A stretch of 64,000 bases of DNA from a virus (Duplodnaviria > Caudoviricetes), in IMG/VR virus record IMGVR_UViG_3300029305_005387. The stretch is one strand, 5' to 3'. The notes beneath the pieces are model-generated. The model was not told the origin of the DNA, made no database searches, and worked only from the letters and a program-made list of their open reading frames with translations. Below, piece by piece: positions 6,047 through 60,342 of the stretch. Within the stretch, counting starts at the first letter, position 1. Every line of letters starts with the position of its first letter. Both the position numbers and the translations under genes were made by a program.

Positions 6047-6089
6047 GTTACATATTAAGAATATATTATACAAAAATCAGCTAATACGA
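6047..6089 (-). promoter_or_regulatory. putative phage early promoter
   Basis: TCGTAT-N18-TATATTCTTAATATGTAAC, same as at 2664 and 57838. Confidence 0.65.
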
Positions 6090-10219: not shown

Positions 10220-11107
10220 TTAATCTTCCATACTGATACTCTCTAAAGAAATGGAAGTATTTGCTAAGATTAAGAAATTGATAAGTTGTTTCATCATTTC
10301 TCTCTTATTAATTGTAATTTCCTCATCTAAGAGTTTTGGTTCTTCATACAGAACGAATCTGTATTTACTATTTGCAAAAGTGATTAGAAACTTCTTAATG
10401 ATATCTGGATTCATATCAATGATTGTAGAGTAAAAATGTTCAATTAGATATAAATAATCTGGATCATTATCCAAGTATTTAGTATCTTTGAGATAAACTT
10501 TTTCTCCTACAGGTGTTTCTTCAATATTTGCAGTAATAATCAGTGCCAATGTAGAATCAAGCAACGTATCTTTAGTAACATTGAAACGTTTCATGATATC
10601 TTTACGCATGATCAATAACAGTTTATGCCAACCAATGTTCTTTAGAAGAGCAAATTCTTGAGCCGATAATGTATGATTAAAGAAATAAATCTCAATCATC
10701 TGTTGTTGTAATCTGTTTGGTTTCAAATTACGTCTATAATATTCAATTTCTTCAGGCGTAATTTCTTTCTCATACTTTTTGAATAATTTATCAACTAACT
10801 GATCCATATCCATAGTACAAGTGAAAACATATCCTTCATTTACTTTCATTTTTGATGCACGATAACGGTCATTCTTAGAATTACCATCTGCATCAGGAAC
10901 TATCGAGGTCTCTATGAGATTTCTTCGGAAAACTTGCATTACGAAAATACTAATATGAGTATTAACAATGCTAGCTAGGAATGAAAGTACTCTCTCATTT
11001 GGTTGTTCCTTTACTCTATTCCATGTTTGAGGTAATTGGAATTTTACCATATTATCAATACAAATGTTTCTGGTCATAATTTGATTAATAATAATAGACT
11101 TGTCCTT
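10220..11107 (-). CDS. conserved jumbo-phage protein, exon 2 (candidate sigma-like RNAP specificity subunit)
   Basis: Begins right after the intron terminal G; joins exon 1 in frame (EIEG|KDKS) to give 569 aa; function inferred only from size and position near beta'. Confidence 0.6.
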   Translation of the reverse strand, partial: KDKSIIINQIMTRNICIDNMVKFQLPQTWNRVKEQPNERVLSFLASIVNTHISIFVMQVFRRNLIETSIVPDADGNSKNDRYRASKMKVNEGYVFTCTMDMDQLVDKLFKKYEKEITPEEIEYYRRNLKPNRLQQQMIEIYFFNHTLSAQEFALLKNIGWHKLLLIMRKDIMKRFNVTKDTLLDSTLALIITANIEETPVGEKVYLKDTKYLDNDPDYLYLIEHFYSTIIDMNPDIIKKFLITFANSKYRFVLYEEPKLLDEEITINKREMMKQLINFLILANTSISLESISMED

Positions 11108-11564
11108 CATTTATCTTACACATTGATTCGCAACATCAATGCAGCAACTTAATGCTTCTACTACTCTCGTAGTACGACATCTGTATCTCAACAGATGAAG
11201 TGACATAAATGTCAGATGAGACTATATCTTCACCATATATTCTGTTACCAAATATATGATGTCCCTCCATTTCCCATTACTTCGTTCCTTGTCAAGGTTT
11301 ACGAACCTCATTAGCTTAGGCGGTACTCTACTGACTACATTGTGTAAGTTGTTTAAATTCTATACACGTAGTTGACCGATAGTCGTTGAACTTTCATCTC
11401 TTATTCAGAGATGATTAGCTGCGACGATTGACTCTATATCTAACTTTTTTACTATACCTTGAAACATTACTTCTTGCCACTAACTCATCACTGAATTAGT
11501 TTAGTAGTTAGATCTTAACAAGTCTTCCCCGCAATTAAAAGGGAAAGGGTTCAAACATAAGTCA
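11108..11564 (-). mobile_element. ORF-less group I intron (457 nt)
   Basis: R (GTTCAACGACTA) and S (AAGATATAGTC) elements; 67- and 73-nt blocks shared with the other two introns; ends AAGATAAATG like the gyrB intron; excision fuses two ORFs in frame. Confidence 0.88.
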
Positions 11565-12386
11565 GCCCTCAATCTCTTGTTGTTCAAAGATGCTTCTATT
11601 GAAAGACATTGAAGACGAAACCTTTGAACTGATGTACATGTAAATTTTGTTATAAATGTCAAAATCCCATTCAAACAAATAGAATGTATCTACATAAAAT
11701 CTGTAGAATAAATCAATATTCTTCTGAATATTGATTGATCTCATTACAGCGAAATGATTAATAATAAATGAAAGAATCTTAATACAGAAACTAATTTGAA
11801 GCATTGCTTTTACATGAACATTTAAGAATTCCAAAGATTTCTTTTTACGTTGCATGATAGAAATCATATCAGGATTAGTAAGATTCTTACTGTTTTCAGC
11901 TTCTATATCATCAACATAATTCTCTTCTACCATTCGTGTAATCTTTTCTTTCATTGAATCTGTGAAAATAGTCTTATAACACAGATCTTTGAATGCATCA
12001 AAGTTTTTCATAGTATAAGAGATATTATCCACATCAATGAGATACTTGATACGAAATAGAGCAGTGATTAATTCACCCTCTTGATCATACATAGTCTCAA
12101 AGAAATTCAATTCCTCACACATTCTTGGTAGATAAGATGAATACGATAACTTAGTGACTTTCCATTCATTCAACGCAGCAATATTTTCATTATTCAAATG
12201 AGCTAACTCTTTGTCAAATTTGATGATCATTGTTTTAGGTACTGAATGAAAACGGACATCATCTGGATGTATCTTCCATTTTATCCAATACGATTCCCTC
12301 CCATTAGGGAACTGATGTTTCTTGTATTCCCATCTAGGAATTTCTTCCGGCTTTTCGACCGGTTTTACTGATGTTAATTGTAACAT
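11565..12386 (-). CDS. conserved jumbo-phage protein, exon 1
   Basis: 274 codons, AGGAGG RBS; in-frame TGA is the first intron triplet. Confidence 0.65.
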
Positions 12387-29210: not shown

Positions 29211-30311
29211 ATGAAATCATATGGTTATCTCTGGGAGAAATTCATTTCTAAAGACAATATAAGATTATGTATAAAGCGTGCTGCCATTGGTAAAAAGAAA
29301 CGAAAATCAGTTAAACGTGTCATGGAGAATATCGACAAGTTCGTCGATATAATCCATGATTACGCACTGAATTTCAAAAATTGTTCACATGAAGAAATTA
29401 AAATATTAGATGGTAATTCTGGTAAAGAAAGGCTTATAATAGTTCCTAGATTTAAGGAACACGTAATACATCATATGGTCGTTGAAGTAATGACCGAAAT
29501 ATTCACGAAGGGTATGTATAAGCACACATACTCTTCGATTCCTGGACGAGGCTTACATAAAGCCATGAAAAAGATGAAAGCATGGATCAAGAAAGATCCA
29601 AAGAATGTGAAATACTGTTTAAAATTAGACATCAAAAAATTCTTTAATTCAATTAATCATGATATACTCAAAGAAAAACTTCATAAAACTATACGAGATA
29701 AACGATTTTTAAAAGTTGTAGATGAAATTATAGATGCTTCCGATAATGGAATACCTTTAGGATTTTATACGTCACATTGGTTTGCAAATTGGTTATTACA
29801 ACCATTAGATCACTTCATTAAAGAAGTTTTAAAAGTAAAATATTATGTAAGATACATGGATGATATGGTCTTGTTTGGATCCAATAAGAAGAAACTTCAT
29901 AAAGCTAAAGAAGCAATTGAAAACTTTTTACGAGATAAACTCAAACTTAAATTGAAAGAAAATTGGCAATTATTTAGATTTGATTATATTAAGAATGGTA
30001 AACATAAGGGTAGAGCCCTTGATTTCGTTGGATTTAAATTCTATAGAGATAAAATCACTTTACGTAAAAATATAATGTTAAGATTAACACGAAAAGCTAA
30101 GAAGATAGAAAAGAAAGGTAAGTTCACAATTCATGATGCAAGACAACTAATGGCTTGGTTAGGATGGATAGATTGGACTGACACTTACAACGTATATAAG
30201 AAATACATAGCTCCTTATATAAACTTCAAGAAATGTAGGAAGCGTATTTCACAATATGATAAGAAGCACTCAGAAATGCTCAAAATTCTAGAATTAAAGG
30301 AGGCAGCATAA
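29211..30311 (+). CDS. DGR reverse transcriptase
   Basis: KERLI, PGRG, LKLDIKKFF, GIPLGFYTSHWFAN, YVRYMDD, DFVGF; adjacent TR. Confidence 0.95.
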   Translation: MKSYGYLWEKFISKDNIRLCIKRAAIGKKKRKSVKRVMENIDKFVDIIHDYALNFKNCSHEEIKILDGNSGKERLIIVPRFKEHVIHHMVVEVMTEIFTKGMYKHTYSSIPGRGLHKAMKKMKAWIKKDPKNVKYCLKLDIKKFFNSINHDILKEKLHKTIRDKRFLKVVDEIIDASDNGIPLGFYTSHWFANWLLQPLDHFIKEVLKVKYYVRYMDDMVLFGSNKKKLHKAKEAIENFLRDKLKLKLKENWQLFRFDYIKNGKHKGRALDFVGFKFYRDKITLRKNIMLRLTRKAKKIEKKGKFTIHDARQLMAWLGWIDWTDTYNVYKKYIAPYINFKKCRKRISQYDKKHSEMLKILELKEAA

Positions 30312-31985: not shown

Positions 31986-32067
31986 GTTAATTTTCCTCCT
32001 TATAGAAAATAAAATTGTTATATAGAACCCAAGGGTGCATCATGCACCCTTGGGTTGTAAACAGGTA

Positions 32068-33696
32068 TTACATACCATGAATCAGCCTAAGCTGGTACAA
32101 GGCGTTATTGTGGTCAAGAGCGTCAGAAACATGGTTGTATCGAGGATTCAACAGCTGTTCCACTAGGCAATCCCAAGGATCCATCTTGTTACTCATCACC
32201 ATCTTTACAAGGTTCAGAGAGAAGCCAGATACTAAGGTAACTCCGAGTTCATTTTCAGTCATCGGAATTGCTCCGCTCCTAGAATTTACATTCCAGAAGA
32301 TTACCTTAGGAAGCTTGTATCCGAGATTTGAGTAATGCTGCTTGATATTATCAAACAACGTTGTAGAATCACTACGATGACTGAGTCTCCATCCTTCATC
32401 GTCACAAACACATCCATCAAATTCCATATCAGAAATAATGAGGATATTCGCAGGAAGAGATTCTTGCTTCATATGAAATCTTACAGCTGTATCCAAAACC
32501 ATATTGAACACTGCTTCAATATTTGTGTTTGCAACTTCATGGAATCTACTCATGTAGTTCATTCTGTCAGCAACTGACTGACTACGAGCATTGTCAAGAT
32601 CAATGAATACAGGATGTTCACTAAAGCTTACTAACTTATTATGGAATTCACCACTCAGTTTTTCAGCAAAGTAAAGAGACAGTGCATCTGCTACATCTGC
32701 AGCGGACACTTTACTATCCTTTCCAACACCTGTTTCCATAGATCCAGAACCATCTCTAACTACAAGGGTACCACCGGTTCCTGCTGGAATAAGATTAGGT
32801 AAACACTTCCACATTGCTTCAAGTGTACTGACGTCCTCTCGGTTATATCCAACTCTTCGGATTTTGGAAACGATCTCATGAGGAAACAGTGTGGCAGCAT
32901 TCATCTTCTCTTTTCCAGAGTTGACATCCTCGATGAACTGTGTGTAGCGTTCCTCGTCATGCTTCATGAAAGCATTTCGATAGATCATACCAGCACGTCC
33001 AGGTACGTTAGGATATTTGATTTCACCCCATTGTCCATTAGACATCTTCACCTCTGTGACATCGATGTATCTGCGAAGCTGTGCAACTAGCTTGCGGTAT
33101 GGAGTCTCCAGTAAACCAAGTTTCTTCGCCATCTTACGAGCAGCTGCCTTCTGGTTTTTGTTGCTAAGAGAAGGTAACCACTTAGCCAGAAGAGAAACAC
33201 GATAACCTTTGTGCATATTTGCGAGGTCATCTTTAAACTGATCATTGATGGCTTTGTAAACCTTGTAGCTGAATTCAACTGAAGAATCTGTCAATTTCAT
33301 CAGATCATCCCACCGACCATAGAAAGGAATGAGTTCTTCAATAGTTTCTGTCTCGTTGTTTCTGATTCTAACTCTAACCAGTTTCGAAATCAGCTCAGGG
33401 TAGTACATAGCCATCCATTTAAGAATGACTCTAAACGCACGACGTTCTCCCATTCCTCCGCGGGGATCACGGAGGAAGAAAAGCCATCTCATGGCTAATT
33501 CCGGAGTCTCATCATAAGCAATGGACCACTTCTTGATGATCTCATCATCAGTCATTTTTCTCATCGCAGGAATAGAAAAATTGAGGTCCAGTAAGGACCT
33601 CCCAGTGGTCTTGTAAGCTGCTGCTCCGTTTTCAGTGAAAGCTCTGTTGTTAATGGAATCACTAACGGCTTTCAGGTTGTTTGCAAAGTTTGTCAT
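32068..33696 (-). CDS. DUF2828-like TROVE/Ro60-related protein with C-terminal vWA domain
   Basis: TENGA, LFFLRDPRGGMGERR, YGRWDDL, LAKWLPS, MIDAS DGSGSM, TNIEAVF, ISDMEFD, IFWNV; start reassigned to ATG 33696 (GGAGG RBS), 542 aa. Confidence 0.85.
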   Translation of the reverse strand: MTNFANNLKAVSDSINNRAFTENGAAAYKTTGRSLLDLNFSIPAMRKMTDDEIIKKWSIAYDETPELAMRWLFFLRDPRGGMGERRAFRVILKWMAMYYPELISKLVRVRIRNNETETIEELIPFYGRWDDLMKLTDSSVEFSYKVYKAINDQFKDDLANMHKGYRVSLLAKWLPSLSNKNQKAAARKMAKKLGLLETPYRKLVAQLRRYIDVTEVKMSNGQWGEIKYPNVPGRAGMIYRNAFMKHDEERYTQFIEDVNSGKEKMNAATLFPHEIVSKIRRVGYNREDVSTLEAMWKCLPNLIPAGTGGTLVVRDGSGSMETGVGKDSKVSAADVADALSLYFAEKLSGEFHNKLVSFSEHPVFIDLDNARSQSVADRMNYMSRFHEVANTNIEAVFNMVLDTAVRFHMKQESLPANILIISDMEFDGCVCDDEGWRLSHRSDSTTLFDNIKQHYSNLGYKLPKVIFWNVNSRSGAIPMTENELGVTLVSGFSLNLVKMVMSNKMDPWDCLVEQLLNPRYNHVSDALDHNNALYQLRLIHGM

Positions 33697-33730
33697 TTGA
33701 CGTACCTCCTTATTGTGTTGAATGTAGTTG

Positions 33731-34294
33731 ATTATTGACCATAAGTCACAATTTTCTTTTTCATATAATTCAAGAATAATGTTTGCTGTACATGACTTGT
33801 TGTCAATAATTGGAGTCATAGGACGCATTTTTTTGTATTCATATAATTTATACATAATGATTTGCTGTACGCGTCCAAAATATGATGATTATGAGGAAGA
33901 ATCATTTTTGTAAAGAAAGTAAACATAGGACTCTTTTAATTTTTGAAATTAATGTAAATTATAATTCTGAGAAGGAATTACATTTTACTCATCTCCCAAA
34001 CTCATATTCGCGGGGTGTCGAATTATGAATCATTATCTCACACACTTTTTATTTTTATATCTTTTACTGTTTTTATTTAGTAATTGATTGCTGTGTGAGT
34101 CCATTATTACTTTCTTTGAATAATTACCATAAATCACATTTTTGGATCTGGCAGATCCTTAATGTTGCCTTTTATGTAATAATTGCTGTGAGTGATTTCT
34201 GTAATTATTTTCATAAGACCCATATTCTTTTTCATATAATATAAGAATTTTAATTGCTGTAAGGGTCTTTAAAAATGATTCTTTGTTTCCTCAT
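33731..34294 (-). ncRNA. large structured leader/ncRNA with five ACAGCAA hairpin modules
   Basis: Five stems of different sequence, each followed by ACAGCAA and closed by AUG; long-range stem 33890-33908/34271-34294. Confidence 0.8.
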
Positions 34295-34306
34295 ATTCAC
34301 ATTAAT

Positions 34307-34337
34307 AATATATAATCGAAAAATCATGCTTATACGA
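34307..34337 (-). promoter_or_regulatory. putative early promoter driving the structured leader and vWA gene
   Basis: TCGTAT-N19-TATATT; TTTTTCGATTATATATTA identical to 63010-63027. Confidence 0.6.
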
Positions 34338-34404: not shown

Positions 34405-34974
34405 TTGAAAGGAGATTTCATTATGAAAATAGATAATGTTATCAAAAGTTTTTATGAAACTTATAACCGTGAAGCAATGGAATCCATAGATAGAATTTCT
34501 AAGGAAATTGGATTAGTTGAAAACGGTCATAGTATTAATGCGTTTAACATCATTGATGCATTTGATAAAATGGAAAGTTATATGAAAGGGTATGCTAATT
34601 ATAAAATTACCGAAAAGACTAATCCTAATGCATCATCTCAGTCAGATATTAAATCCTTGACTTATAAATTTATTGATAGTAATGTATTCAGTGAATGCAA
34701 GTTAGGATATAATGAGATTCCAGCTTTTATTGAATCATATATTAAGAGAACAGATTCTTTGATTAAAACATTAGATGAGATTAAAGAATCTATGTCTGTT
34801 GCTGATATTGATCAAGAGTCTATCGGTGATGTAAATGATATGGCAGATCATTTTGTTGAAAAATTACAGGAATCATTTAATCCTGTTATGGATAAAATTT
34901 TATGGGCTTCTGGATACAACGCACGTCAACGTTTGAGAAATGAAAAGGTACAACCAAAACCTGTATTCCTGTAA
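34405..34974 (+). CDS. hypothetical protein (likely start ATG 34423)
   Basis: About 183-aa ORF with AGGAG RBS. Confidence 0.7.
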   Translation: MKGDFIMKIDNVIKSFYETYNREAMESIDRISKEIGLVENGHSINAFNIIDAFDKMESYMKGYANYKITEKTNPNASSQSDIKSLTYKFIDSNVFSECKLGYNEIPAFIESYIKRTDSLIKTLDEIKESMSVADIDQESIGDVNDMADHFVEKLQESFNPVMDKILWASGYNARQRLRNEKVQPKPVFL

Positions 34975-47281: not shown

Positions 47282-50200
47282 TTATGGTCTAGCCATTGCT
47301 GTTATTGATCGTGCACTTGAATAAGAACTTGATCCTTTGTTAAATGTTTTTGATTTAGATTTACCTAGTGCATTAATTGAATCACGTAAACCCTGATCAA
47401 CAAATTCTTTTTCATTCAAGCTTGATAATAATGTAGTGGAAGATCCTGTATTTGTACTGATCTTTACTAATTCAGAAACTACCTGTTTCATCAATCCAAT
47501 CACTCCACTTAAGTCAGTTCCTGGAATAATATCATGCTGATAAGAATTATCACTCGTTACAGGAGCACTAGCTTTAATGATAGGAGGATTACTTTGATTC
47601 AATGTATGAGTTACTGAATAATTATCAGAAGGAGTAACTTTAGGAATAGATTTTCTCTGTGTAGTTGCATAATTATTCATTGTACCAATACTACTATCTG
47701 TAGGTCCACCGATACCATCTTCAATATTACCAGGATCAGCTTGCACCTCTAAAGTCTTTCCGCTAGGATCTTTCAATACTTGAGCATTTTGTGATTCAAA
47801 ATCATAATTTTCATCTTCAATTGAACCACCAGTACCATATTTACCTTTAAGCTGATTATACAAAGATCTAGCAGTAGATTGTCTGGAAGAAGAGTCTCCG
47901 GAATATCCTTCAAAATACTTACAGAACAATCTTGCAGCTTCTTCAGGACTAGAAGCATTTTCAATCTTGGATCTTACACCAGAATAGCTTCCTTTCAATT
48001 CAGTATCAAGGAATGCTAACTGAGTTGCAGAATCACCCCAATCAAGATTATTAGATCTTGCAAAATCAAGTAATGCTTTACCTCTAGGACCTGTCCATTG
48101 AGCATAACCAATACCAGGATAATAGTGTCCATCAGATGCTTTATATGCAGCTCTATTAATAGATAGACCTTGGCTTGCATACTGATTAAATAGTGCTTGT
48201 GTATAATTATCCATCGCAGATCTATCATTCAGTACTTTATCATATCCTAGTAAAGTTTTGAAGGAATTAGAATAATCCCATTCAACTCGTTTGGATCTAT
48301 TACCAGATTCCTTCGTCCAGCAACCAAGAACACCAGCAATAGCATGATCACTATATCCAAGTCCTTTGAAATATTTCCAAAGTTCTTCTGCTCCTTCACC
48401 AACTGATGATATACTAGAGAGACTCGTTTGAAGATTACTAAAATCAACTGCTCTAATGTAAACAGTTACTTCACTCATCTTACGTTTCTTTCTAGCTACA
48501 CAACCACCGTTGCTTTGAGAGCCAGCGTCAGAAGCTGAAGTATTACCTTCAATTGTCTGAATGTATCCATTACCCAATACTTCTTCCACAATACCAGTAT
48601 GAGACATACTAGATGTAGATTTAGTCCAGATAATAATATCACCTGGTTTAGGATTAGATGTATGAACCTTATCAGACTGATTAGATTTATACCAGTTCAT
48701 CAATTGTGAACAAGATGCAGTTTTGTGAGGTAAAGTTAATCCTGCATTATTGAAACACCATTGTACAAATGCCATACACCAAGGATACGAATCACCACTA
48801 ACTTCTTTACCATAATACCATGTATTATATTTTACTTTATTGCTTCCAGGAGGATTTTCAGTTGTACCAATTTCAGCCGCACACATTGCAAGGAAGTCAG
48901 CTGCAGAACCAACGCCACCACTGTAAGCTCCAGAAGAACCACTAATAGAACTACTTGAACTAGAGGAATTATTACTGAATAGACCGCCAGTTATTAAGTT
49001 CAAGAATCCAGTACCAACTTCCTGAATCTTATCAATTAACTGATTGAAAATACCATCAGATGTTCCACCTGTACCAATTCTGCTATCATTATCAATCTCT
49101 TGATATCCACCATGAATTGGATTAATTGCAGACTTTCTACCAAGTTTAGCATCATTTTCAATCTGATAATGTAAGTGAGCTCCTGTTGACCAACCAGTTG
49201 AACCCATTCGACCAATCTTAGTACCAACCTCAACTCTTGCTCCAGGTTTAATGGAACTAGGAATAGATCCAGCGGCTAGATGCATGTTCTTAACTCGTTT
49301 GCCGTTATCAGTATCGATCCATACTTCATTACCACCTGATTTATTTCCACTATAAGACCATTTACCATTTGCGTCTTTATGAGCAGTATCATTATCTGCG
49401 ACAGTTCTTTCAACTTTAGAAATAGTACCACTGAAACGTGATTCTACATCAGCAGTTTTAGAACCATCCCTAGGTATTAAATCAACACCATAATGGTATC
49501 CTTCATAAGGATGACGTCTCTTACCAAATCCACTGCTTACAGAATAAGATTTGTTTAAAGGATTACCTCCTTCAATACTACCACCTATTCCAGCATAAGC
49601 AGGTTGCATAGAAGATCTGAAAGGAACAGCTCCGCCTATTCTAGGTCCACCTACTCCTTCACTATCGCCTCCGGAACCACCTAACCAATCCCAGAACTTC
49701 TCTAAACCACCGCTGAATTTTTCCTTGACAGAATCAATCGCATCTTCAATCCAATTTCCAATTGAACTAACGATTGCAACAGCAGAATTGAAAAGTTTAG
49801 AAATAGTAAATGAAACTTTCCATATAGCAGATAATGGGTCTCCATCTTCCAAAGTTAATTCTTTACTCCAAACCGCATTTACATCTCCATCTTTAGCTGA
49901 ATCTGCTAAATCAGAAAGAGCTGTATCAAGAGTACTCTTATTTGAACTAACCTTAGTTGAGATTCCTTCAAATCCTTCTTTGATTTTATTACCAATTACA
50001 TGTATTCCAGCTCTTGGATAGTTGATAAGTTTTGCAACTCCAAACATAGCTTTCATGATACCGCCAAGAGGATTTTCTGAATTATCTTCGTATTCTAAAG
50101 ATTTAATTCCTTCAAAATCACCAGCCTTAGCGTATTCTTCAATTGAATCCACATTTGTATCTAAAGTAGATTTAGCTTCACCAATTGTATCAAGCATTGC

Positions 50201-53200
50201 AGTGAATTTCTCTTTAACTTTAGCACCTACCCAATGTAATCCAGCACTTGGTACGTTCAAATATTTATCAACTGTAAAGATAGCTTTAGTGAAACCACCT
50301 ACTGGGTTTTCAGGATCATCTTCAAAATCTAAACCTAATAAACCTGTTACATCACCATCTTTTACGAACTGTGAGATACTTTCATGGTTCTGTGTCAACG
50401 CTCCAAAACTATTGGAAACCTTTTCTTTTACAGCATTAAACTTAGAACTTACGCTATTACCTACCCAGTGAAGACCTGTTGGTACATAGTGTAAAAATTT
50501 ATCCACATTAAAAATTCCCTGTGTAAAACCACCTACTGGGTTTTCAGGGTCCATTTCCATTGTGGCTGCTCCTAAAGCTGTAAAATCTCCAGTTTTGGAA
50601 ATTGCATTCAGAGTATCATGATTTGTTCCTAAAGTAGTAAAACTATTGGAAACCTTTTCTTTTACAGCATTAAACTTATCGGCGATTTTATGTCCTACCC
50701 AAGATAAACCTGCAGGAACAAATGAAACAAATCTAACACCGTTAAAGATTGATCTTGTTAATTTACCAACTGGATTCTCATCATTATCAACGAATTCAGC
50801 TGTTTTCAATCCTTCTAAATCACCAGCACTAATGTACTGAGTTAAGTTTCCAACACTTGTCGATAGTTGATTAAAATCATTCTTAACGACGGATACTATT
50901 TTAGAAATCTTATCCCCAATAATACCACCAACTCGTTTAACCAAAGCTGTTGGAATGATGCTTAGACGAGAAGCGATTTTTGTAACTTTCATAAAATCGC
51001 CGACTGGATTATCTGGATCTTCATCCTCAACCTTAAACAGATCTGAGAAGTTTGAAGACTTATCTGTCAAGAGTTTATTTGCATATTCTCTTTCAGCAGA
51101 AATAGTACTTCCAAAATCTTTAACCTTTTTAACTACTCCAGTTACTTTATCAGCGATTCCATGACCAGCTGCAGATATTAATGTAGGTACTGTAATAAAT
51201 GTTTTTCCTGCATTATAAACTGCACTGCCAAAACCACTTATAGGACTATCAGTATCAACTTCAGAACTTTTACTAGAAAGAAGACCTTTTATATCACCTT
51301 TCTTAACATAACTGAATAGTGTTGCTGCTGAAGATTTAAAATCACTAAAACCTTTTTTAGCTTTATCACCAATATTTTCAGTAAATTCCTTAATAGAATC
51401 TCCAGCATTGGATAAAGCAGCTCCAGTTCTTTCAATCAGATTACCTTTAGTTTCTTTAACTACATAATTTCCTTCAGCATCGACTTTAGCAACACCATTT
51501 TCATCGGTTTCATAAACATCTCCACCAGTAAAGAAACGTCCAACACTATTAGCCCATTTACCAATTTTAGCACCGAATTTTTCATCTTTATAAAGTTCAT
51601 TACCTTCGGCATCAACAGCTCTAATGGCTTTACCTTCAGCGTCTCGAACAACAACACCCTCTTCATTTTTGACGTATTGTTTTTCTCCGCCTATAACAGC
51701 ACCTTTCAGACCTCCATCTATTATACCACCAGCATCATCAAAGACAAAGTTTCCTTCTTCATCTTTTTTCATACCGCCTCTTAGAACTTTATCAACCCAA
51801 CTTCCATTGTTTACAAGATCATTGAAAGTTGAACTATTAAGATCTGTACCATATTGAGCATTATATTTATCTTTCTGAGCAGTCATTTCACCTTGCTTCT
51901 CAGCAAGTGTAGCTGCTCCTTCTTCACCAGCAATCAACTTATATAAGAATTCAGCAATGTATTGTTGTAATGTTTTACCAGTCAATCCTAAAATAATAAG
52001 TTGATCAATGATATCAAGAGCACTTACGATAAAACCTACAGCAGGAGTCCATTCAAGAGCTTCAAATACACCTTTTTGAACTGCAGCTATAGCTTTCATA
52101 GTAGCATCTGCTTCTCCAGGAGCGACATTGAACAAATGTTCTACTGAACATAGACCAGAAGCAATACCAGATATAGCACCTATTGCAATTGGAACTCCGA
52201 CTCCTAAAGCAGAAATAGCCTGTTTAGCTGTTCCAGCTCCTAATTTTGCAGTAAGTTTAGCAGTAATCTTCTCAGCAATAGTAGATGTAACTTTACCAGT
52301 AGTTTTTCTGCAAATATCATCGAAGAAAGAAGTAATTTTTCCTCCAAAAGATTTTAACGCATTTACTGCTTTAAATTTAGTAGCAAGGAAATTAAAGAAT
52401 TTCTTCAGAATTTCAATAATATTATCAACAAGACCTACACCTTTATCTATTACTGACTTCTTACCTTTAATTGCAGATACTCCCTGATTCACAATTAGAC
52501 CTGCAGTTGTACCAGCAGTAACATAATCACCAAGTCTTTCAGAATTTTCTTCACTTAATCCAAGTTGGTCGCCTACATAACTAGCAGCTTCTCCAGCAAT
52601 AGTAGAAACTCCTGTCATTACACCAACACGTTTAGCATTAAGAACAACTTCATCTAGAGCTCCTTTACCAGTTTGACTTCTAGCCTCAGCTGCATCAGCA
52701 TCTGCGTCTTGTGCTCTCTGATAATAATCACCAGATTGGTCAGCTAACTGATCTCTTTGTTGACGTAATGTAGCTGCTCCATCAACATCTCCATCCATTT
52801 CAGCAATTCTTGCTCTACGAGTAAGATCAGAAGCTTCCGCATATGCATCATCAGCCATATTCATATAGTTTACAGAATCTCTTGTATACTTATATGCCTG
52901 ATAAGCAGGTTTCGTGATGGACTGTTTCAAAGGAGTGTAAAGTAAGTAATCATTCTTCGCTTCTGTTGCTCCTTGATGAATAACTTGTTCACCACTAGCA
53001 TCGGTATCATTATGATATACATTAGTAAATGGATTGAATAAATCAGTTTTATCATTTACTTCAGCATCAAATGTATTCAGGACTGTATTCACACCAGAGG
53101 TTACTGGATCATCAGATTTATCAGATCCCCAGAACTCTTCCCAAGAATCTCTCAGCTGATCAGCTATATTGTCCATATTACCAAAAGCACCTAATATAGT

Positions 53201-56200
53201 ATGAATAGCTGTTAAAATACCGCCCCATTTAATGAGATTATTCAGTATACCATTATCGCCACCAAGAATTTCAGTAATCTTTTCAAAGAAACTAGATTTC
53301 TCCTCTTTCTCCTCAGAAACTATTTCTTCTTGACTTTGTAGCAATTCACGTGACTTTGCTGCTAATACAGATTTATTACTGTCATCCTTAGCTGCTTCTG
53401 CAATAATCTGATTCACAAGTCTCTGATCTGTAGTTGTTATATGTCCTTCAGAAGCAAGTGTTGCAGCCATTCCTAATGTAGAATTAGCAAATCCTTCATC
53501 TTCTTCATGACGAGCACTTTGTGCTACTGTATCCTTTAAATCATCAGAAGGAGCTGCTTCAGCAGATGTTCTAAAATCATCTCCCTTAAACATATCAGCG
53601 ATTCCATGAAGTTCTGGATTAACCTGTCCTATGGTGGAATTATTTTCAGAAGACTCAGATTCTGCAGTTTTCTTAATCGAACCAGGTAGCCAAGACTTAA
53701 TTGTATTGATGATCTCATCAATTCTGGTGTGAAGACCCTCATCATGTGTATATATTGAACCCTTTTCAGATCCTAGCTCAGCAAGTGTTGTTACTCCTTC
53801 TCGGATTTCAGAAGTATCTTGTGCTGTTTGTACAGCAGCTTCATTTGCTGCTACTTCTTCAGGTGTGAGGACTCTCTCATGTGTATATTCTTTTACTTTG
53901 GCAGCCCATCTGGAACGACGTTCGTTTTCAGCTGCTTTATAGGTCTTATAGTCAGCATACTTATCATCTTTTGCTCTTTCATCTTTAATAGATGCAGCTC
54001 TATCTTTTCTACGAGATCTAATAAAAGATTTAGTAGAAACTGTCTTTTCTTCACCAGTCTCTTCATCAACATATGTATGCTTATTTTTACCTGCAATAGA
54101 ATTTGCAATACTACTTAAACCAGCTCCAATTACACCAGTACCAGCAGAACTTGCTCCTCGTGTTGCTCCACCAATCATAGCTATAGGAGCTTTGGCGACA
54201 TTAAGAAGTCCTTTTAATGGAGATAACATCATGTTTCCAATAAACTTAAAAACTTTACCAAAGTGAGATTCAGCAGAATTTGCAATTCTATCTTTAATAG
54301 CAACTCCAATATCGGATAATGGTCCAAGAATATTTTTCTTTAAATTATCTCCGATATGTTGGGCAGTTTTACCAATCTGGAATTTAATAGGATCAACGAT
54401 TCCATCAGTTAAGCGAGTTAAAAGACCTTTGGCTCTTCCTTTTTCATCTCTACCTATAAACAGATCTTTTATCTTGCTACCAATATCCATTCCTGATAAT
54501 GCATTACCAGCGACGGCACCCATTATTAGACCAATTGGCCCTCCTAATATACCAGCACCAGCAAATGCACCTACAGATGCAGATATTAATTTCTTACGTT
54601 TATTAACAATGGAATTATCTTCATCCTTATCTCCATAATCAAAATATCCTGCTACTTCTTTAAACCATCCAGCAGCTTTATCTTTGGTACCTGCAAACAT
54701 GTCTTTGACATAATCTTTTACAAATCCAAAATAACCGCCTTTTTCATTTTCAGCCACATCTACTCTATTACCATCTTCATCAGTATAACTGTAAGCATGA
54801 CCGAAAATTTTATGTTTCAAATAACCAGTAACATTTCCAAATTGATCATTTATTCGAGCTGCTCCAGCTTTAACCTGTTCGCCTGTTACCTCTGTAACAT
54901 CTCTCATGATTAAACTAAAAGCTTCTCGTACTTGTTCAGGAGATCCAGAGAATAAAGCCCTTCTTAAATTTCCTCCTCTTTCTTTACCCCATCTTACAAA
55001 ACGTTGTCCCTTAGACAACTCTTCAGTTGTTCCATCTTCAAGTTCTTGATTTTGTAACAGATTAGGTTCATCAAATGTATTTTCACCAGAAAGAGTAGAA
55101 ACTGTATTTTGTGATTGACCTGTAGCAATATCATTAGTTGCTTTAGGTCTATAATCAACTGGTGGAGATAAATATTCATTACCTCTTTCCGGATAAGGAT
55201 CAGTTTGAATATTTGAACTTCCTACTTGGAAAACATTAATACCTCTATTCAAAACTCTAAATATTTCATATAAAGCTTTATTTGAATAAAAAGTACCAGT
55301 ATGTATATTTCCAGTTGATTTAATTTCACTCTCCGCATTGCTTTGAATTCTACCATGTGATCTAAGAATATTTTGTACTTCTTTATCAGCATTAGATTTC
55401 ACATCAGAAAGATCCATGTTATAAGCATTTGCAGTGCTCAGATAAGAAGACATTTTACGATTACGATTTACATTTATCATTGCAATCTGATTAGAGATAT
55501 CAGTACTAATATTTGTATCCAAGTGTTTGGAAATGTTAGAACCCATTTGATCAACTCTGGCTCTTTCATTATCGCTCATCGTCAGATTGTTATTTTTATA
55601 TAAATCTTCAATATACTGAGTAAATTTTGAAGGATCCATTGTAAATCCTTCAATTTGCCTTCTAGCTTCTCCTCCTGCAGTTTTATTACCAAGATCAGTA
55701 ACCATAAAGTCATAGATCATCGATCCGAAACTATCATATCCAAATGATTCTCTAACTTGTCTACTTGCACTACCAAGAGAACCACTTGCAGTAGAAGCAT
55801 CTAAATAATCTTTTTTAATAGTAGCTTTAGTTGAAAACTTTCTTCCCTGATAATCATATACTACATCTTCTCCACTAATAGCGTTAAGAATCTTTCTAAG
55901 ATAACCAGGTATTGCATTCGTTATAGATTCATGAGCAATAGAATCAAATGGAACTGCTTTTAATTCTAATGAAGATCTAGTGTTACTAATATCCTGACGT
56001 CTAGAATCAATGCCGAATAAACGAGAAAGTTTTCCACTTTCACTCCAACTATTATTTTCTCCTAACCTAATCAAAGAATTCAAAACAGTGTCACTAATAG
56101 CACTGTCAAGAGCTTCCATATTTTTACGAAGATTAGGAGCTTTTGCATCTAAAATACTTGACAATATACCACTTGTCAATGCCTCTGGAGTTGCCATCTG

Positions 56201-56947
56201 TTTTAACATCGTAGGATTTAACAACATAGGCATGAAAGCAGTTATCATTCCTAATTCTGGATGATTTTTAATATTACCTTGGAGAATTTTCTTATATTCA
56301 GATAAACTAAATTTTCCAGAAGATAACATACTCTGAGTTGGATTTTCTTTAGAAGCAGCCGCAACTGTAGCTTCAATTGCAGTAGATGTATTTTTTGTAA
56401 CTATCTCTAAAATATTATTCAGAATTTCATGAGTACGATCAAAACCAGTTGAGATAATATTACTCTGTTGATCAACACTTGTTACAATATTAGCAGTCAA
56501 TTGCATATGACCTTCCATCATATGATGACCGCTTTCTACAACTGCTTTAGAAATTTTATTACTACTTGCTTCAGTTTCACTAATTTCTATTTCAGTAAGT
56601 TTTGCTGAACTAGATTCTTCTAGGTCAATATCAAAATCTAATGAGGAATCGAAATCAATAGATCCAATATCTCCAAAATCATCTTCACTTTGCATAAACC
56701 ATCTGAATACATCTTTTAACCCAGTTTGAACTTTCATTTGTTTCAAACTAGGCATTATAGCTTGCATATTTTTACTCAATGCATTAGATGCTGAAGAAAT
56801 CGTACTAGTTGCTTCTGTAATAGTACTAGTGGTCACTGGCATTACATCTTTAATATAATCACCAGCAGCACCAGTAATCAAACCAGTCGTTCTTTTTAGA
56901 AAATCTCCGGCAATACTGCCTTTTTTTGTACTAATAGAAGCAGCCAT
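47282..56947 (-). CDS. giant tail (tape-measure-like) protein with M23 peptidase, CHAP amidase and phage tail lysozyme domains
   Basis: HYGVD..HL..STGAHLHY (M23); PWCMAFV..HTGIV..TIEGN (CHAP); IAGVLGCWTKES..GIGYAQWT.R (tail lysozyme); DPENPVGGF repeats. Confidence 0.85.
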   Translation of the reverse strand: MAASISTKKGSIAGDFLKRTTGLITGAAGDYIKDVMPVTTSTITEATSTISSASNALSKNMQAIMPSLKQMKVQTGLKDVFRWFMQSEDDFGDIGSIDFDSSLDFDIDLEESSSAKLTEIEISETEASSNKISKAVVESGHHMMEGHMQLTANIVTSVDQQSNIISTGFDRTHEILNNILEIVTKNTSTAIEATVAAASKENPTQSMLSSGKFSLSEYKKILQGNIKNHPELGMITAFMPMLLNPTMLKQMATPEALTSGILSSILDAKAPNLRKNMEALDSAISDTVLNSLIRLGENNSWSESGKLSRLFGIDSRRQDISNTRSSLELKAVPFDSIAHESITNAIPGYLRKILNAISGEDVVYDYQGRKFSTKATIKKDYLDASTASGSLGSASRQVRESFGYDSFGSMIYDFMVTDLGNKTAGGEARRQIEGFTMDPSKFTQYIEDLYKNNNLTMSDNERARVDQMGSNISKHLDTNISTDISNQIAMINVNRNRKMSSYLSTANAYNMDLSDVKSNADKEVQNILRSHGRIQSNAESEIKSTGNIHTGTFYSNKALYEIFRVLNRGINVFQVGSSNIQTDPYPERGNEYLSPPVDYRPKATNDIATGQSQNTVSTLSGENTFDEPNLLQNQELEDGTTEELSKGQRFVRWGKERGGNLRRALFSGSPEQVREAFSLIMRDVTEVTGEQVKAGAARINDQFGNVTGYLKHKIFGHAYSYTDEDGNRVDVAENEKGGYFGFVKDYVKDMFAGTKDKAAGWFKEVAGYFDYGDKDEDNSIVNKRKKLISASVGAFAGAGILGGPIGLIMGAVAGNALSGMDIGSKIKDLFIGRDEKGRAKGLLTRLTDGIVDPIKFQIGKTAQHIGDNLKKNILGPLSDIGVAIKDRIANSAESHFGKVFKFIGNMMLSPLKGLLNVAKAPIAMIGGATRGASSAGTGVIGAGLSSIANSIAGKNKHTYVDEETGEEKTVSTKSFIRSRRKDRAASIKDERAKDDKYADYKTYKAAENERRSRWAAKVKEYTHERVLTPEEVAANEAAVQTAQDTSEIREGVTTLAELGSEKGSIYTHDEGLHTRIDEIINTIKSWLPGSIKKTAESESSENNSTIGQVNPELHGIADMFKGDDFRTSAEAAPSDDLKDTVAQSARHEEDEGFANSTLGMAATLASEGHITTTDQRLVNQIIAEAAKDDSNKSVLAAKSRELLQSQEEIVSEEKEEKSSFFEKITEILGGDNGILNNLIKWGGILTAIHTILGAFGNMDNIADQLRDSWEEFWGSDKSDDPVTSGVNTVLNTFDAEVNDKTDLFNPFTNVYHNDTDASGEQVIHQGATEAKNDYLLYTPLKQSITKPAYQAYKYTRDSVNYMNMADDAYAEASDLTRRARIAEMDGDVDGAATLRQQRDQLADQSGDYYQRAQDADADAAEARSQTGKGALDEVVLNAKRVGVMTGVSTIAGEAASYVGDQLGLSEENSERLGDYVTAGTTAGLIVNQGVSAIKGKKSVIDKGVGLVDNIIEILKKFFNFLATKFKAVNALKSFGGKITSFFDDICRKTTGKVTSTIAEKITAKLTAKLGAGTAKQAISALGVGVPIAIGAISGIASGLCSVEHLFNVAPGEADATMKAIAAVQKGVFEALEWTPAVGFIVSALDIIDQLIILGLTGKTLQQYIAEFLYKLIAGEEGAATLAEKQGEMTAQKDKYNAQYGTDLNSSTFNDLVNNGSWVDKVLRGGMKKDEEGNFVFDDAGGIIDGGLKGAVIGGEKQYVKNEEGVVVRDAEGKAIRAVDAEGNELYKDEKFGAKIGKWANSVGRFFTGGDVYETDENGVAKVDAEGNYVVKETKGNLIERTGAALSNAGDSIKEFTENIGDKAKKGFSDFKSSAATLFSYVKKGDIKGLLSSKSSEVDTDSPISGFGSAVYNAGKTFITVPTLISAAGHGIADKVTGVVKKVKDFGSTISAEREYANKLLTDKSSNFSDLFKVEDEDPDNPVGDFMKVTKIASRLSIIPTALVKRVGGIIGDKISKIVSVVKNDFNQLSTSVGNLTQYISAGDLEGLKTAEFVDNDENPVGKLTRSIFNGVRFVSFVPAGLSWVGHKIADKFNAVKEKVSNSFTTLGTNHDTLNAISKTGDFTALGAATMEMDPENPVGGFTQGIFNVDKFLHYVPTGLHWVGNSVSSKFNAVKEKVSNSFGALTQNHESISQFVKDGDVTGLLGLDFEDDPENPVGGFTKAIFTVDKYLNVPSAGLHWVGAKVKEKFTAMLDTIGEAKSTLDTNVDSIEEYAKAGDFEGIKSLEYEDNSENPLGGIMKAMFGVAKLINYPRAGIHVIGNKIKEGFEGISTKVSSNKSTLDTALSDLADSAKDGDVNAVWSKELTLEDGDPLSAIWKVSFTISKLFNSAVAIVSSIGNWIEDAIDSVKEKFSGGLEKFWDWLGGSGGDSEGVGGPRIGGAVPFRSSMQPAYAGIGGSIEGGNPLNKSYSVSSGFGKRRHPYEGYHYGVDLIPRDGSKTADVESRFSGTISKVERTVADNDTAHKDANGKWSYSGNKSGGNEVWIDTDNGKRVKNMHLAAGSIPSSIKPGARVEVGTKIGRMGSTGWSTGAHLHYQIENDAKLGRKSAINPIHGGYQEIDNDSRIGTGGTSDGIFNQLIDKIQEVGTGFLNLITGGLFSNNSSSSSSSISGSSGAYSGGVGSAADFLAMCAAEIGTTENPPGSNKVKYNTWYYGKEVSGDSYPWCMAFVQWCFNNAGLTLPHKTASCSQLMNWYKSNQSDKVHTSNPKPGDIIIWTKSTSSMSHTGIVEEVLGNGYIQTIEGNTSASDAGSQSNGGCVARKKRKMSEVTVYIRAVDFSNLQTSLSSISSVGEGAEELWKYFKGLGYSDHAIAGVLGCWTKESGNRSKRVEWDYSNSFKTLLGYDKVLNDRSAMDNYTQALFNQYASQGLSINRAAYKASDGHYYPGIGYAQWTGPRGKALLDFARSNNLDWGDSATQLAFLDTELKGSYSGVRSKIENASSPEEAARLFCKYFEGYSGDSSSRQSTARSLYNQLKGKYGTGGSIEDENYDFESQNAQVLKDPSGKTLEVQADPGNIEDGIGGPTDSSIGTMNNYATTQRKSIPKVTPSDNYSVTHTLNQSNPPIIKASAPVTSDNSYQHDIIPGTDLSGVIGLMKQVVSELVKISTNTGSSTTLLSSLNEKEFVDQGLRDSINALGKSKSKTFNKGSSSYSSARSITAMARP

Positions 56948-60163: not shown

Positions 60164-60342
60164 TCCAATCTATATATTTCTCTCATATTTTTATAATAAT
60201 ATATAACTTAGGATTATATATTATTAACATAAGGATTGAGAGTAAGTTTAACTTTATGAGTAAACTCTTTAAAAGAAGTAACATATATTTTATATCAAAT
60301 CCTTAAACAACAATAAAACATTTCAAGGAGGTTCATTTAACA

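What the first reader, a model, noticed from the sequence alone, without database searches (positions are those of the whole stretch)
32068..34337. Array of five covarying ACAGCAA RNA modules upstream of a TROVE/Ro60-like vWA gene: candidate new ribonucleoprotein system
Seen on the minus strand, 5' to 3': AAGACCC-UUACAGCAA..GGGUCUU-AUG (34269-34212); AAAUCAC-UCACAGCAA..GUGAUUU-AUG (34198-34128); GGACUC-ACACAGCAA..GAGUCC-UAUG (34102-33924); GGACGC-GUACAGCAA..GCGUCC-UAUG (33876-33817); AAGUCA-UGUACAGCAA..UGACUU-AUG (33798-33740). Stem sequences all differ but stay complementary, while ACAGCAA and the 3' UAUG are invariant. Three modules have 9-11-bp outer stems. Three carry an inner hairpin with a conserved AUUAUAUGA loop; the other two hold different hairpin cargo, one about 150 nt. 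A long-range stem (34294-34271 with 33908-33890) encloses three modules and starts just after an early-promoter motif. Known: Ro60/TROVE-vWA proteins bind Y RNAs through a bulged stem. Inference: a polycistronic array of Y-RNA-like ligands, or a multivalent autoregulatory leader, for this protein. It could work in RNA repair/decay or as a decoy against host RNA-targeting defences. I do not recognise it as a described family.
Basis: partly seen in the sequence, partly recalled or inferred. Interest (0 to 1): 0.9.

Follow-up and report, generated by a model that had tools for sequence, protein, structure and literature searches.

The report
Phage Ro60-like protein's partner RNAs
Upstream of a gut phage's gene for a protein predicted to fold like the RNA-binding ring Ro60 lie five small folded RNAs sharing one "handle" (a short clamp helix plus ACAGCAA); the same pairing recurs in very different phages, is absent from Rfam and the papers I could search, and probably forms a Y-RNA-like RNA-protein particle.

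Summary
Five modules sit at the stated minus-strand coordinates. Each has a 6-8 bp clamp helix, 0-2 nt, an invariant ACAGCAA, variable cargo, and a 3' (U)AUG. Three modules have 9-11 bp outer stems. A 26-bp long-range helix encloses modules 1-3.

The gene downstream is DUF2828+DUF7788. Its AlphaFold model matches Ro60 over the whole chain (Z 18.9), although no TROVE match was found by sequence.

The same handle lies beside DUF2828 genes in Listeria A511, Enterococcus EFDG1, Felix O1-type, cluster L mycobacteriophages, and Campylobacter, Staphylococcus, Bacillus and Klebsiella phages. In 26 further loci, all 43 model hits were on the gene's strand. Some relatives carry YrlA-like tRNA parts as cargo.

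In a reverse test, 21 of 26 IMG/VR contigs with a closed handle encode DUF2828, against 2 of 9 with an unclosed match.

Rfam 15 has no family for it. The only weak hits are to Dictyostelium Class I RNA and YrlA.

Best reading (0.7): Y-RNA-like partner RNAs of a Ro60-like protein, made as one precursor. Binding is inferred, not shown.

This scan has found the same family many times before on other DNA. New here are the outer stem with an AUG internal loop, the conserved long-range helix, and an array with no tRNA parts.

The parts
34298..34316 (-). Promoter-like box (ATTATATATTATTAATGTG) just upstream of the array
   Evidence: Three copies in the window against 0.3 expected. The other two (6051-6069 -, 60213-60231 +) also sit just upstream of ORFs. 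A similar box precedes the arrays of relatives L037 and L039. Function as a promoter is inferred.
34271..34302 (-). 5' arm of the long-range helix (about 26 bp)
   Evidence: It pairs with 33909-33882 in the minimum-energy fold. Helices of 27-29 bp with different sequence lie at the same place in L037 and L039.
34212..34269 (-). Module 1: clamp AAGACCC/GGGUCUU, UU, ACAGCAA (34260-34254), hairpin with AUUAUAUGA loop, 3' AUG
   Evidence: Model R1 scores 51.4 bits, E 1.4e-9. It contains the full 11-nt CCUUACAGCAA of Dictyostelium Class I RNAs.
34119..34209 (-). Module 2 with 9-bp outer stem (34209-34201 / 34127-34119), clamp AAAUCAC/GUGAUUU, ACAGCAA 34189-34183, GGAUCU hairpin cargo, AUG in the internal loop
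   Evidence: R1 scores 39.1 bits.
33912..34117 (-). Module 3 with 11-bp outer stem (34117-34107 / 33922-33912), clamp GGACUC/GAGUCC, ACAGCAA 34094-34088, 154-nt structured cargo
   Evidence: One contig of a metatranscriptome library covers 33896-34073 (weak).
33882..33909 (-). 3' arm of the long-range helix
33817..33876 (-). Module 4: clamp GGACGCGU/AUGCGUCC, ACAGCAA 33868-33862, hairpin with AUUAUAUGA loop, 3' UAUG
   Evidence: R1 scores 46.2 bits.
33731..33810 (-). Module 5 with 9-bp outer stem (33810-33802 / 33739-33731), clamp AAGUCAUG/UGUGACUU, ACAGCAA 33789-33783, AUUAUAUGA hairpin, AUG in the internal loop
   Evidence: R1 scores 43.4 bits. The outer stem covaries in the last module of L036, L037 and L039.
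32068..33711 (-). Ribosome-binding site AAGGAGG (33711-33705) and the gene of the Ro60-like protein (ATG 33696 to stop 32068, 542 aa; DUF2828 + DUF7788, vWA with DxSxS)
   Evidence: Pfam 126 and 133 bits. phrog_850 'RNA-binding protein'. AF2 pLDDT 85, pTM 0.86. Ro60 structures are the top hits. D315, S317 and S319 are invariant.
32026..32056 (-). Strong palindromic hairpin 12 nt after the stop codon: likely end or stabiliser of the transcript
   Evidence: Read from the sequence. Not listed by the terminator scan because no U run follows. Inferred.

Best explanation
The five modules are small structured RNAs, or domains of one precursor. They belong to a widespread phage RNA family defined by a handle: the 5' and 3' ends pair in a 6-8 bp clamp, followed by 0-3 nt and single-stranded ACAGCAA. 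The loop carries variable cargo.

The handle is most likely the docking site for the ring-shaped, Ro60-like DUF2828/vWA protein encoded just downstream. Each module would then form a Y-RNA-like ribonucleoprotein.

In this phage the array and the gene appear to be transcribed together from a promoter-like box at about 34316-34298. A 26-bp long-range helix around modules 1-3, and the 9-11 bp outer stems, would serve as double-strand processing sites (RNase III type) that release the units.

By analogy with Ro60/Rsr and Y RNA, the RNA would gate the ring or tether it to other factors, acting on RNA metabolism or host defence during infection.

Shown here: the modules, their covariation, their genomic linkage and strand, and the predicted Ro60 fold.
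Inferred: transcription as one unit, processing, binding and function.
For: 1. Structure. The clamp pairs in 98% of cells in 30 modules from 16 sources. All 7 pairs show changes on both sides, and slid controls pair 26-43%. In 56 further distinct sequences found by model R1, 99% pair and all 7 pairs again show double changes.

2. Specificity. R1 hits only the five modules in the 64 kb window. In five whole phage genomes of 75-148 kb it hits only within about 700 nt of the DUF2828 gene. The same holds in genomes not used for training, Klebsiella FBKp34 and Staphylococcus PG-2021_14.

3. Strand. All 43 hits in 26 loci are on the gene's strand.

4. Reverse test. Of 41 IMG/VR loci matching an 18-nt 5' handle pattern (one position free), 26 are closed by a perfect 7-bp helix. 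Of those 26 contigs, 21 encode DUF2828, and the other 5 are 7-70% complete. Of 9 unclosed matches tested, 2 encode it. Four contigs without DUF2828 (489 kb in all) have no R1 hit.

5. Protein. The AF2 model has pLDDT 85. Its top 13 Foldseek hits are all Ro60/TROVE. VIA-align gives Z 18.9, rmsd 4.1 A over 422 residues to Xenopus Ro60 1yvp. The vWA-only hits that follow drop to Z about 10. The MIDAS DxSxS is invariant.

6. Y RNA kinship. In relatives the cargo is a T-arm plus D-arm, which gives sub-threshold YrlA hits of 27-40 bits.

7. One unit. There is no minus-strand terminator-like site between the box and the gene. The fold has z = -8.0. The long-range helix is kept through sequence change in L037 and L039.

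8. Function of the protein family. A Ro60-like protein of phage Bas63, placed directly upstream of its tRNA genes, counters the Ppl defence (PMC11482910).
Against: - No experiment shows binding. Adjacency is the main argument.
- In the preprint the Bas63 protein alone, expressed from a plasmid or from T7, rescued T7 on Ppl without any cognate RNA. So at least that activity does not need the RNAs.
- Some DUF2828 phages gave no R1 hit (Stenotrophomonas DLP_6, Aeromonas Aeh1). Synechococcus B3 has only variant motifs. In Serratia BF, Vibrio ValKK3 and Sinorhizobium phiM19 the hits lie 8-200 kb from the gene.
- One 192-kb contig has six hits and no DUF2828 match.
- The modules of alignment A1 were picked by a script that looks for stems. 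Alignment A3 is fitted to the model, and many of its sources were fetched with a handle pattern. Both lean towards the structure.
- Expression evidence is one short contig of one RNA library.
Confidence: 0.7

Rival explanations
1. The modules are cis-acting sites in the 5' leader of the DUF2828 mRNA. The protein, or another factor, binds its own leader at five sites to control translation or stability. No free small RNAs are made.
For: In this window and its closest relatives all modules lie between the promoter-like box and the gene, on its strand, with no terminator between them. The last module ends about 20 nt before the ribosome-binding site.
Against: - In Felix O1-type, cluster L mycobacteriophage, Staphylococcus and Klebsiella phages the modules lie downstream of the gene.
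- In Bacillus Chewbecca they are interleaved with tRNA genes.
- In Serratia BF they are 200 kb away.
- The ribosome-binding site is not paired in the predicted fold.

This reading does not exclude the best explanation for this particular phage.
Confidence: 0.12
2. The handle is recognised by a host or other phage factor, not by the DUF2828 protein. Examples would be a processing nuclease that punctuates tRNA-type transcripts, or a defence nuclease that the RNAs decoy. On this reading the linkage to DUF2828 reflects a shared operon or pathway only.
For: - The modules often sit in tRNA clusters, and some mimic tRNA parts.
- The Bas63 protein acts without the RNAs in T7.
- Some genomes separate the RNAs from the gene.
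Against: - The handle differs from known tRNA processing determinants.
- The co-occurrence with DUF2828 is tight in both directions.
- The protein has the fold of a dedicated small-RNA-binding ring.
- This window has five modules and no tRNA gene at all.
Confidence: 0.13
3. There is no RNA function. The units are DNA-level repeats (recombination or homing sites, promoters), short protein-coding ORFs, or chance.
For: - ORFs of 33 and 36 aa overlap modules 2 and 4, and an in-frame ATG at 33855 extends the main ORF to 595 aa.
- A public gene call of 585 aa does the same.
- Single stems of this quality arise by chance at about 14% of positions.
Against: - Pairing is kept by double changes while the stem sequence drifts.
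- Orientation relative to the gene is the same in 43 of 43 hits.
- The invariant heptamer falls in different frames.
- Homologues align from ATG 33696, not upstream of it.
- Five copies lie in 480 nt, against about 7 expected in 128 kb of both strands.
Confidence: 0.03

Closest known systems
Ro60/Rsr with Y RNAs, especially bacterial and mycobacteriophage YrlA (Rfam RF02553; Chen et al. 2014, PMC4201824) and Thermus phage phiLo Ro60 with Yrl1/Yrl2 (PMC12135203; PDB 9l5y)
   Same: - A ring protein made of helical repeats plus a vWA/MIDAS domain.
- Small RNAs whose 5' and 3' ends pair in a stem, encoded within a few hundred nt of the protein gene on the same strand, often in several copies.
- Cargo that in relatives mimics a tRNA T-arm and D-arm.
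- In this lineage, a long bipartite stem with an internal loop.
   Different: - The protein is DUF2828/DUF7788, with no TROVE match by sequence.
- The protein-proximal element is a clamp plus single-stranded ACAGCAA, not the bulged helix with the GNCGAA/CGAA motif.
- YrlA scores are far below the gathering score, and absent in this window.
- The five modules here carry no tRNA-like part.
Class I RNAs of dictyostelid social amoebae (Rfam RF01414; Kjellin et al. 2021, PMC7919456)
   Same: - A short stem joins the 5' and 3' ends.
- A conserved motif lies directly after the 5' stem arm. Module 1 contains the full CCUUACAGCAA.
- The start is AAG and the end is CU(U)G-type.
- The interior is variable, the size is about 55-65 nt, and there are many copies.
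   Different: - Scores of 18-24 bits are below the gathering score of 41.5.
- Class I RNAs are eukaryotic genes with their own upstream DUSE element, reported as unique to Dictyostelia.
- Their known direct binder is an RRM protein (Rnp1A/CIBP).
- Whether dictyostelids encode DUF2828 was not testable here.
Bas63 (Felix O1-type) gp130, PhageMaP preprint PMC11482910
   Same: A Ro60-like phage protein encoded directly upstream of the tRNA stretch. The authors guessed that some neighbouring 'tRNA' genes might be Y RNAs. This is the only functional datum for what is most likely the same protein family: it counters the Ppl defence.
   Different: - The ACAGCAA RNAs are not described there.
- The protein alone sufficed in T7.
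- I did not confirm by sequence that gp130 is the DUF2828 gene. I inferred it from its position and from the conservation of that gene in 251 Felix O1-type records.

Membership tests
Pfam DUF2828 (PF11443) + DUF7788 (PF25043) proteins | Score above the curated cut-offs (29 and 27.1 bits) | tested here: met
   126 and 133.3 bits. phrog_850, E 6e-121.
Ro60 / TROVE proteins | TROVE domain recognisable by sequence | tested here: not met
   No TROVE family at E <= 0.01 in Pfam. A 33-sequence profile against PDB sequences reaches Ro60 of phage phiLo only at E 0.72, over the MIDAS loop.
Ro60 / TROVE proteins | Ro60 architecture: helical-repeat ring closed by a vWA domain with MIDAS | tested here: met
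   AF2 model (pLDDT 85, pTM 0.86). 1yvp Z 18.9, rmsd 4.1 A over 422 residues, model residues 14-506. All ten best entries are Ro60, and vWA-only hits follow at Z about 10. DxSxS is invariant. This is a prediction, not a solved structure.
Ro60 / TROVE proteins | Binds Y RNA or misfolded RNA | not testable with these tools
   No tool here models protein-RNA complexes. Needs EMSA, RIP or CLIP.
YrlA (Rfam RF02553) | Score at or above the gathering score of 69 bits | tested here: not met
   No hit in the window, even at E <= 10. Relatives score 27-40 bits.
YrlA (Rfam RF02553) | tRNA-like domain (T-arm and D-arm) | tested here: not met
   None in the five modules. ARAGORN finds nothing in the window. 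It is present in some modules of L001-L006, EFDG1, Finnry, skuden and Chewbecca.
YrlA (Rfam RF02553) | Encoded near the Ro60-type gene and on its strand | tested here: met
   (relative to DUF2828, not TROVE).
Dictyostelium Class I RNA (Rfam RF01414) | Score at or above the gathering score of 41.5 bits | tested here: not met
   24.0 and 18.3 bits for modules 1 and 2. 19 bits for two modules of L002.
Dictyostelium Class I RNA (Rfam RF01414) | Short terminal stem, 11-nt motif next to the 5' arm, AAG start and CUGU-type end, 42-65 nt | tested here: inconclusive
   - Stem: yes.
- Motif: ACAGCAA is invariant, UUACAGCAA is common, and the full 11-mer occurs in module 1.
- Ends: the family consensus is A-AAGAC..GUCUU-G-U, but this window ends in AUG.
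- Size: 55-68 nt for four of the five modules.

This shows resemblance, not homology.
Dictyostelium Class I RNA (Rfam RF01414) | Dictyostelid gene with an upstream DUSE element | tested here: not met
   This is a phage of an animal-gut metagenome. The modules lie in one array behind a phage promoter-like box.
   Four modules were part of the training set. The fifth, with its long insert, was found at 21 bits.

The most novel reading that the evidence does not exclude
The ACAGCAA handle is the recognition element of an ancient ribonucleoprotein class shared by phages and eukaryotes. On this reading the dictyostelid Class I RNAs, whose function has been open since 2004 and which are reported as unique to social amoebae, are homologues of these phage RNAs, and their missing partner is a DUF2828-type Ro60-like protein. 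DUF2828 does occur in eukaryotes: plant papers, and the Arabidopsis similarity noted in the Aeh1 record.
Probability: 0.12. Interest if true: 0.9.

Novelty: new variant of a known kind. Interest (0 to 1): 0.74.

Why it matters
- Scale. DUF2828 genes are in 710 of about 50,700 deposited phage genomes, and one search returned more than 7,900 related protein clusters. The phages include model and therapy-relevant ones: Felix O1, A511, EFDG1 and cluster L mycobacteriophages.
- Annotation. Their partner RNAs are unannotated. Gene callers cover them with spurious small ORFs or with N-terminal extensions, as happens here.
- Biology. If the RNAs dock on the ring, this is a second, sequence-unrelated Ro60/Y-RNA system with a simple, portable handle and swappable cargo (hairpins, tRNA parts, 150-280 nt inserts).
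- Defence. It would give a mechanism to a protein that a preprint already links to defence evasion.
- Open question. It also offers a concrete, testable candidate partner for the unexplained Class I RNAs of Dictyostelium.

Tried and rejected
- Rfam at gathering thresholds found nothing in the region.
- blastn of the array against deposited phages found no match, so the DNA itself is new to that collection.
- No whole genome is held for the window.
- No tRNA or tmRNA is in the window.
- Rfam on the relatives' upstream regions found nothing for the large inserts.
- Sequencing runs. The stretch is held by animal gut and faeces metagenomes. The single RNA library (X20) gave one good contig over 33896-34073 and two poor partial ones. 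The lack of cover elsewhere says nothing, and contigs cannot give ends or strand.
- Coding by the small ORFs, and the 595-aa extended ORF, were rejected (see rivals).
- Literature. DUF2828, YrlA + phage, ACAGCAA + Y RNA, Ro-like/vWA/tRNA and TROVE/vWA/RNA repair gave no description of this RNA family.
- Avesson et al. 2011 and Aspegren et al. 2004 are not held. I therefore could not see which four proteins associate with a Class I RNA.
- I could not establish whether Dictyostelium encodes DUF2828. The Atlas look-up showed only viral clusters, a paper search found nothing, and no eukaryote genome is searchable here.
- Complex prediction was not used, because it takes no RNA chain.
- Bas63 was not among the rows listed, so its gp130 was not matched by sequence.
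Full report
**1. What is there**

Read on the minus strand, the 650 nt between a divergent 189-aa ORF (34405-34974, +) and the DUF2828 gene hold five units of one design.
- A 5' arm of 6-8 nt, then 0-2 nt, then the invariant heptamer ACAGCAA.
- A variable insert.
- A 3' arm complementary to the 5' arm, then AUG or UAUG.

ACAGCAA occurs nine times in the 64 kb window. That is not unusual overall, but five copies fall in one 480-nt stretch on one strand.

Modules 1, 4 and 5 carry a small hairpin whose loop contains AUUAUAUGA. Module 2 carries a GGAUCU/AGAUCC hairpin. Module 3 carries a 154-nt insert.

Modules 2, 3 and 5 have a further outer helix of 9, 11 and 9 bp. It is separated from the clamp by an internal loop with 2-4 nt on the 5' side and (U)AUG(U) on the 3' side.

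A 26-bp helix pairs 34302-34271 with 33909-33882 and encloses modules 1-3. The 601-nt stretch folds at -131.4 kcal/mol, against -91.4 +/- 5.0 for shuffles (z = -8.0). The fold recovers every clamp and leaves ACAGCAA unpaired in modules 1, 4 and 5.

A single clamp of this quality turns up at about 14% of random positions. The argument therefore needs comparative data.

**2. The neighbouring gene**

The ORF is best started at ATG 33696, behind AAGGAGG. Homologues align from there.

Public gene calls, such as P0001 at 585 aa, and the naive 595-aa ORF run back into the RNA array. The 585-aa public call is most likely an over-extension.

The 542-aa protein hits DUF2828 and DUF7788, and no TROVE family at E <= 0.01. 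An AlphaFold2 model built on 33 sequences has pLDDT 85.4 and pTM 0.86.
- Foldseek's 13 best PDB hits are all Ro60/TROVE proteins over the full length. They include the Ro60 of Thermus phage phiLo (TM 0.52-0.60, E down to 7e-9).
- VIA-align gives Z 18.9, rmsd 4.1 A over 422 residues to Xenopus Ro60 (1yvp). The next, vWA-only entries follow at Z about 10.
- The MIDAS DxSxS (D315, S317, S319) is invariant.
- By sequence a family profile reaches Ro60 only at E 0.72.

So the protein is Ro60-like in predicted fold and is not a recognisable member of TROVE by sequence.

**3. The pairing recurs**

tblastn finds the protein in 710 deposited phage genomes of many host phyla.

Stem-closed ACAGCAA modules lie next to the gene in all of the following.
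- IMG/VR relatives of 36-47% identity (2-5 modules each).
- Listeria A511 (3, upstream).
- Enterococcus EFDG1 (3, upstream, two with a T-arm and D-arm).
- Enterococcus VRE9_2.
- A Felix O1-type phage (4, downstream, among tRNA genes).
- Mycobacteriophage Finnry (3, downstream).
- A Campylobacter phage (2).
- A Staphylococcus phage (3, downstream).
- Bacillus Chewbecca (5, in the tRNA cluster).

Covariation was measured in two alignments.
- An alignment of 30 short modules gives 98% paired cells. All seven clamp pairs show changes on both sides, and slid controls pair 26-43%. These modules were chosen by a stem-seeking script, so this is partly circular.
- I therefore built a covariance model, R1, and searched sequence it had not seen. 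Fifty-six further distinct sequences pair at 99%, again with double changes at all seven pairs. That alignment is fitted to the model, and many sources had been fetched with a handle pattern.

R1 is specific in location and strand.
- It hits only the five modules in this window.
- In whole phage genomes it hits only beside the DUF2828 gene. This includes two genomes outside the training set.
- All 43 hits in 26 loci are on the gene's strand.

**4. Reverse test**

An 18-nt 5' handle pattern with one free position matched 41 IMG/VR loci. About a dozen matches are expected by chance.
- Twenty-six matches are closed by a perfect 7-bp helix, mostly 37-78 nt downstream.
- Of those 26 contigs, 21 encode DUF2828. 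The other five are fragments 7-70% complete.
- Of nine unclosed matches tested, two encode it, and one of those shares its contig with a closed match.
- Four contigs without DUF2828, 489 kb in all and including a complete 284-kb phage, have no R1 hit.

There are exceptions.
- A 192-kb contig has six hits but no DUF2828 match.
- Stenotrophomonas DLP_6 and Aeromonas Aeh1 gave no hit.
- In Synechococcus B3 the motif is varied.
- In three large phages the hits lie 8-200 kb from the gene.

**5. This lineage**

The closest relatives come from other gut metagenome contigs, at 50-60% protein identity. They share the synteny: a divergent 184-aa gene, a 1-kb gap, then the DUF2828 gene. They carry 3-6 modules.

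Three features seen in the window are shared by them.
- Nearly all their modules end in CUUAUG(G/A), instead of the CUUG of other phages.
- Most have a covarying outer helix of 6-11 bp across an internal loop with AUG on the 3' side.
- The array begins with a 27-29 bp long-range helix of different sequence, spanning 514 and 810 nt.

Long inserts of 146 and 262 nt occur there too. A promoter-like box precedes the array in all three lineages, and it recurs twice in this window in front of ORFs. No minus-strand terminator-like site separates the box from the gene.

Together these points suggest one precursor with double-stranded processing sites. That is an inference.

The window has no tRNA gene, and its modules have no tRNA-like part.

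**6. What is known**

Rfam 15 has no family for these RNAs. The only weak hits are to YrlA (27-40 bits against a gathering score of 69, in relatives with tRNA-like cargo) and to Dictyostelium Class I RNA (18-24 bits against 41.5).

- Chen et al. 2014 (PMC4201824) found YrlA next to TROVE-type Ro60 in bacteria and mycobacteriophages.
- The phiLo study (PMC12135203) showed a TROVE phage Ro60 binding two upstream Y-like RNAs with a CGAA motif, and host PNPase.
- Neither paper treats DUF2828 or ACAGCAA.
- Class I RNAs share the design: a terminal stem, an 11-nt motif after the 5' arm, an AAG start and a CUGU end (PMC7919456). Module 1 contains the full CCUUACAGCAA. I count this as a resemblance only.
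Bas63 gp130 is Ro60-like in structure and sits directly upstream of the tRNA stretch. It counters the Ppl defence, and the authors suggest that some neighbouring tRNA genes may be Y RNAs. The protein alone rescued T7. So that activity does not require the RNAs, which tempers the claim that the RNAs are needed for function.
- I infer that gp130 is the DUF2828 gene from its position and from the gene's conservation in 251 Felix O1-type records. I did not match it by sequence.

**7. Verdict**

The best explanation, at confidence 0.7, is a set of Y-RNA-like partner RNAs of a Ro60-like protein, transcribed with its gene. The rivals are a cis-acting leader (0.12), a handle read by some other factor (0.13), and no RNA function (0.03).

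This scan has reported the same RNA family many times on other DNA. Those notes are not independent evidence, and I re-derived each point here.

Relative to public knowledge it is a new variant of the Ro60/Y-RNA kind. The window adds a tRNA-free array, the bipartite stem with an AUG loop, and a long-range helix conserved by covariation.

Noticed in passing
window 11199-11613 (-): Group I intron (Rfam RF00028, 55 bits, E 3e-11) lying between ORFs 10220-11110 and 11562-12386. This suggests a split phage gene.
   Followed up: no
window 29211-30311 (+): A 366-aa ORF matches phrog_1423 'Reverse transcriptase' at E 1e-108. It may be a diversity-generating or other retroelement, about 2 kb from the DUF2828 gene.
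   Followed up: no
window 6051-6069 (-) and 60213-60231 (+): Two further copies of the promoter-like box that precedes the RNA array, each just upstream of an ORF. This may be a class of phage promoters.
   Followed up: partly
L037 2165-2615: In a 52%-identical relative, the conserved long-range helix encloses about 450 nt with no ACAGCAA module, no Rfam hit and no called gene. It may be an unknown structured RNA.
   Followed up: partly
IMG/VR contig behind L050 (handle G002), 131.6-133.6 kb: Six handle RNAs cluster on a 192-kb contig (70% complete) where no DUF2828 match was found. Either the gene lies on the missing part or the RNAs can exist without it.
   Followed up: partly
L004 6179-6275: A skipping-rope RNA (RF02924, 62 bits) sits inside a phage tRNA cluster that also holds ACAGCAA modules.
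   Followed up: no
window 33697-33855 (-): The naive 595-aa ORF starts at the in-frame ATG 33855, inside the RNA array. A public gene call for a 99%-identical protein (585 aa) likewise runs upstream of ATG 33696 into the array. Small ORFs of 33 and 36 aa also overlap modules 2 and 4. These are likely annotation artefacts.
   Followed up: yes
window 47282-56947 (-): A single 3221-aa ORF, not examined.
   Followed up: no
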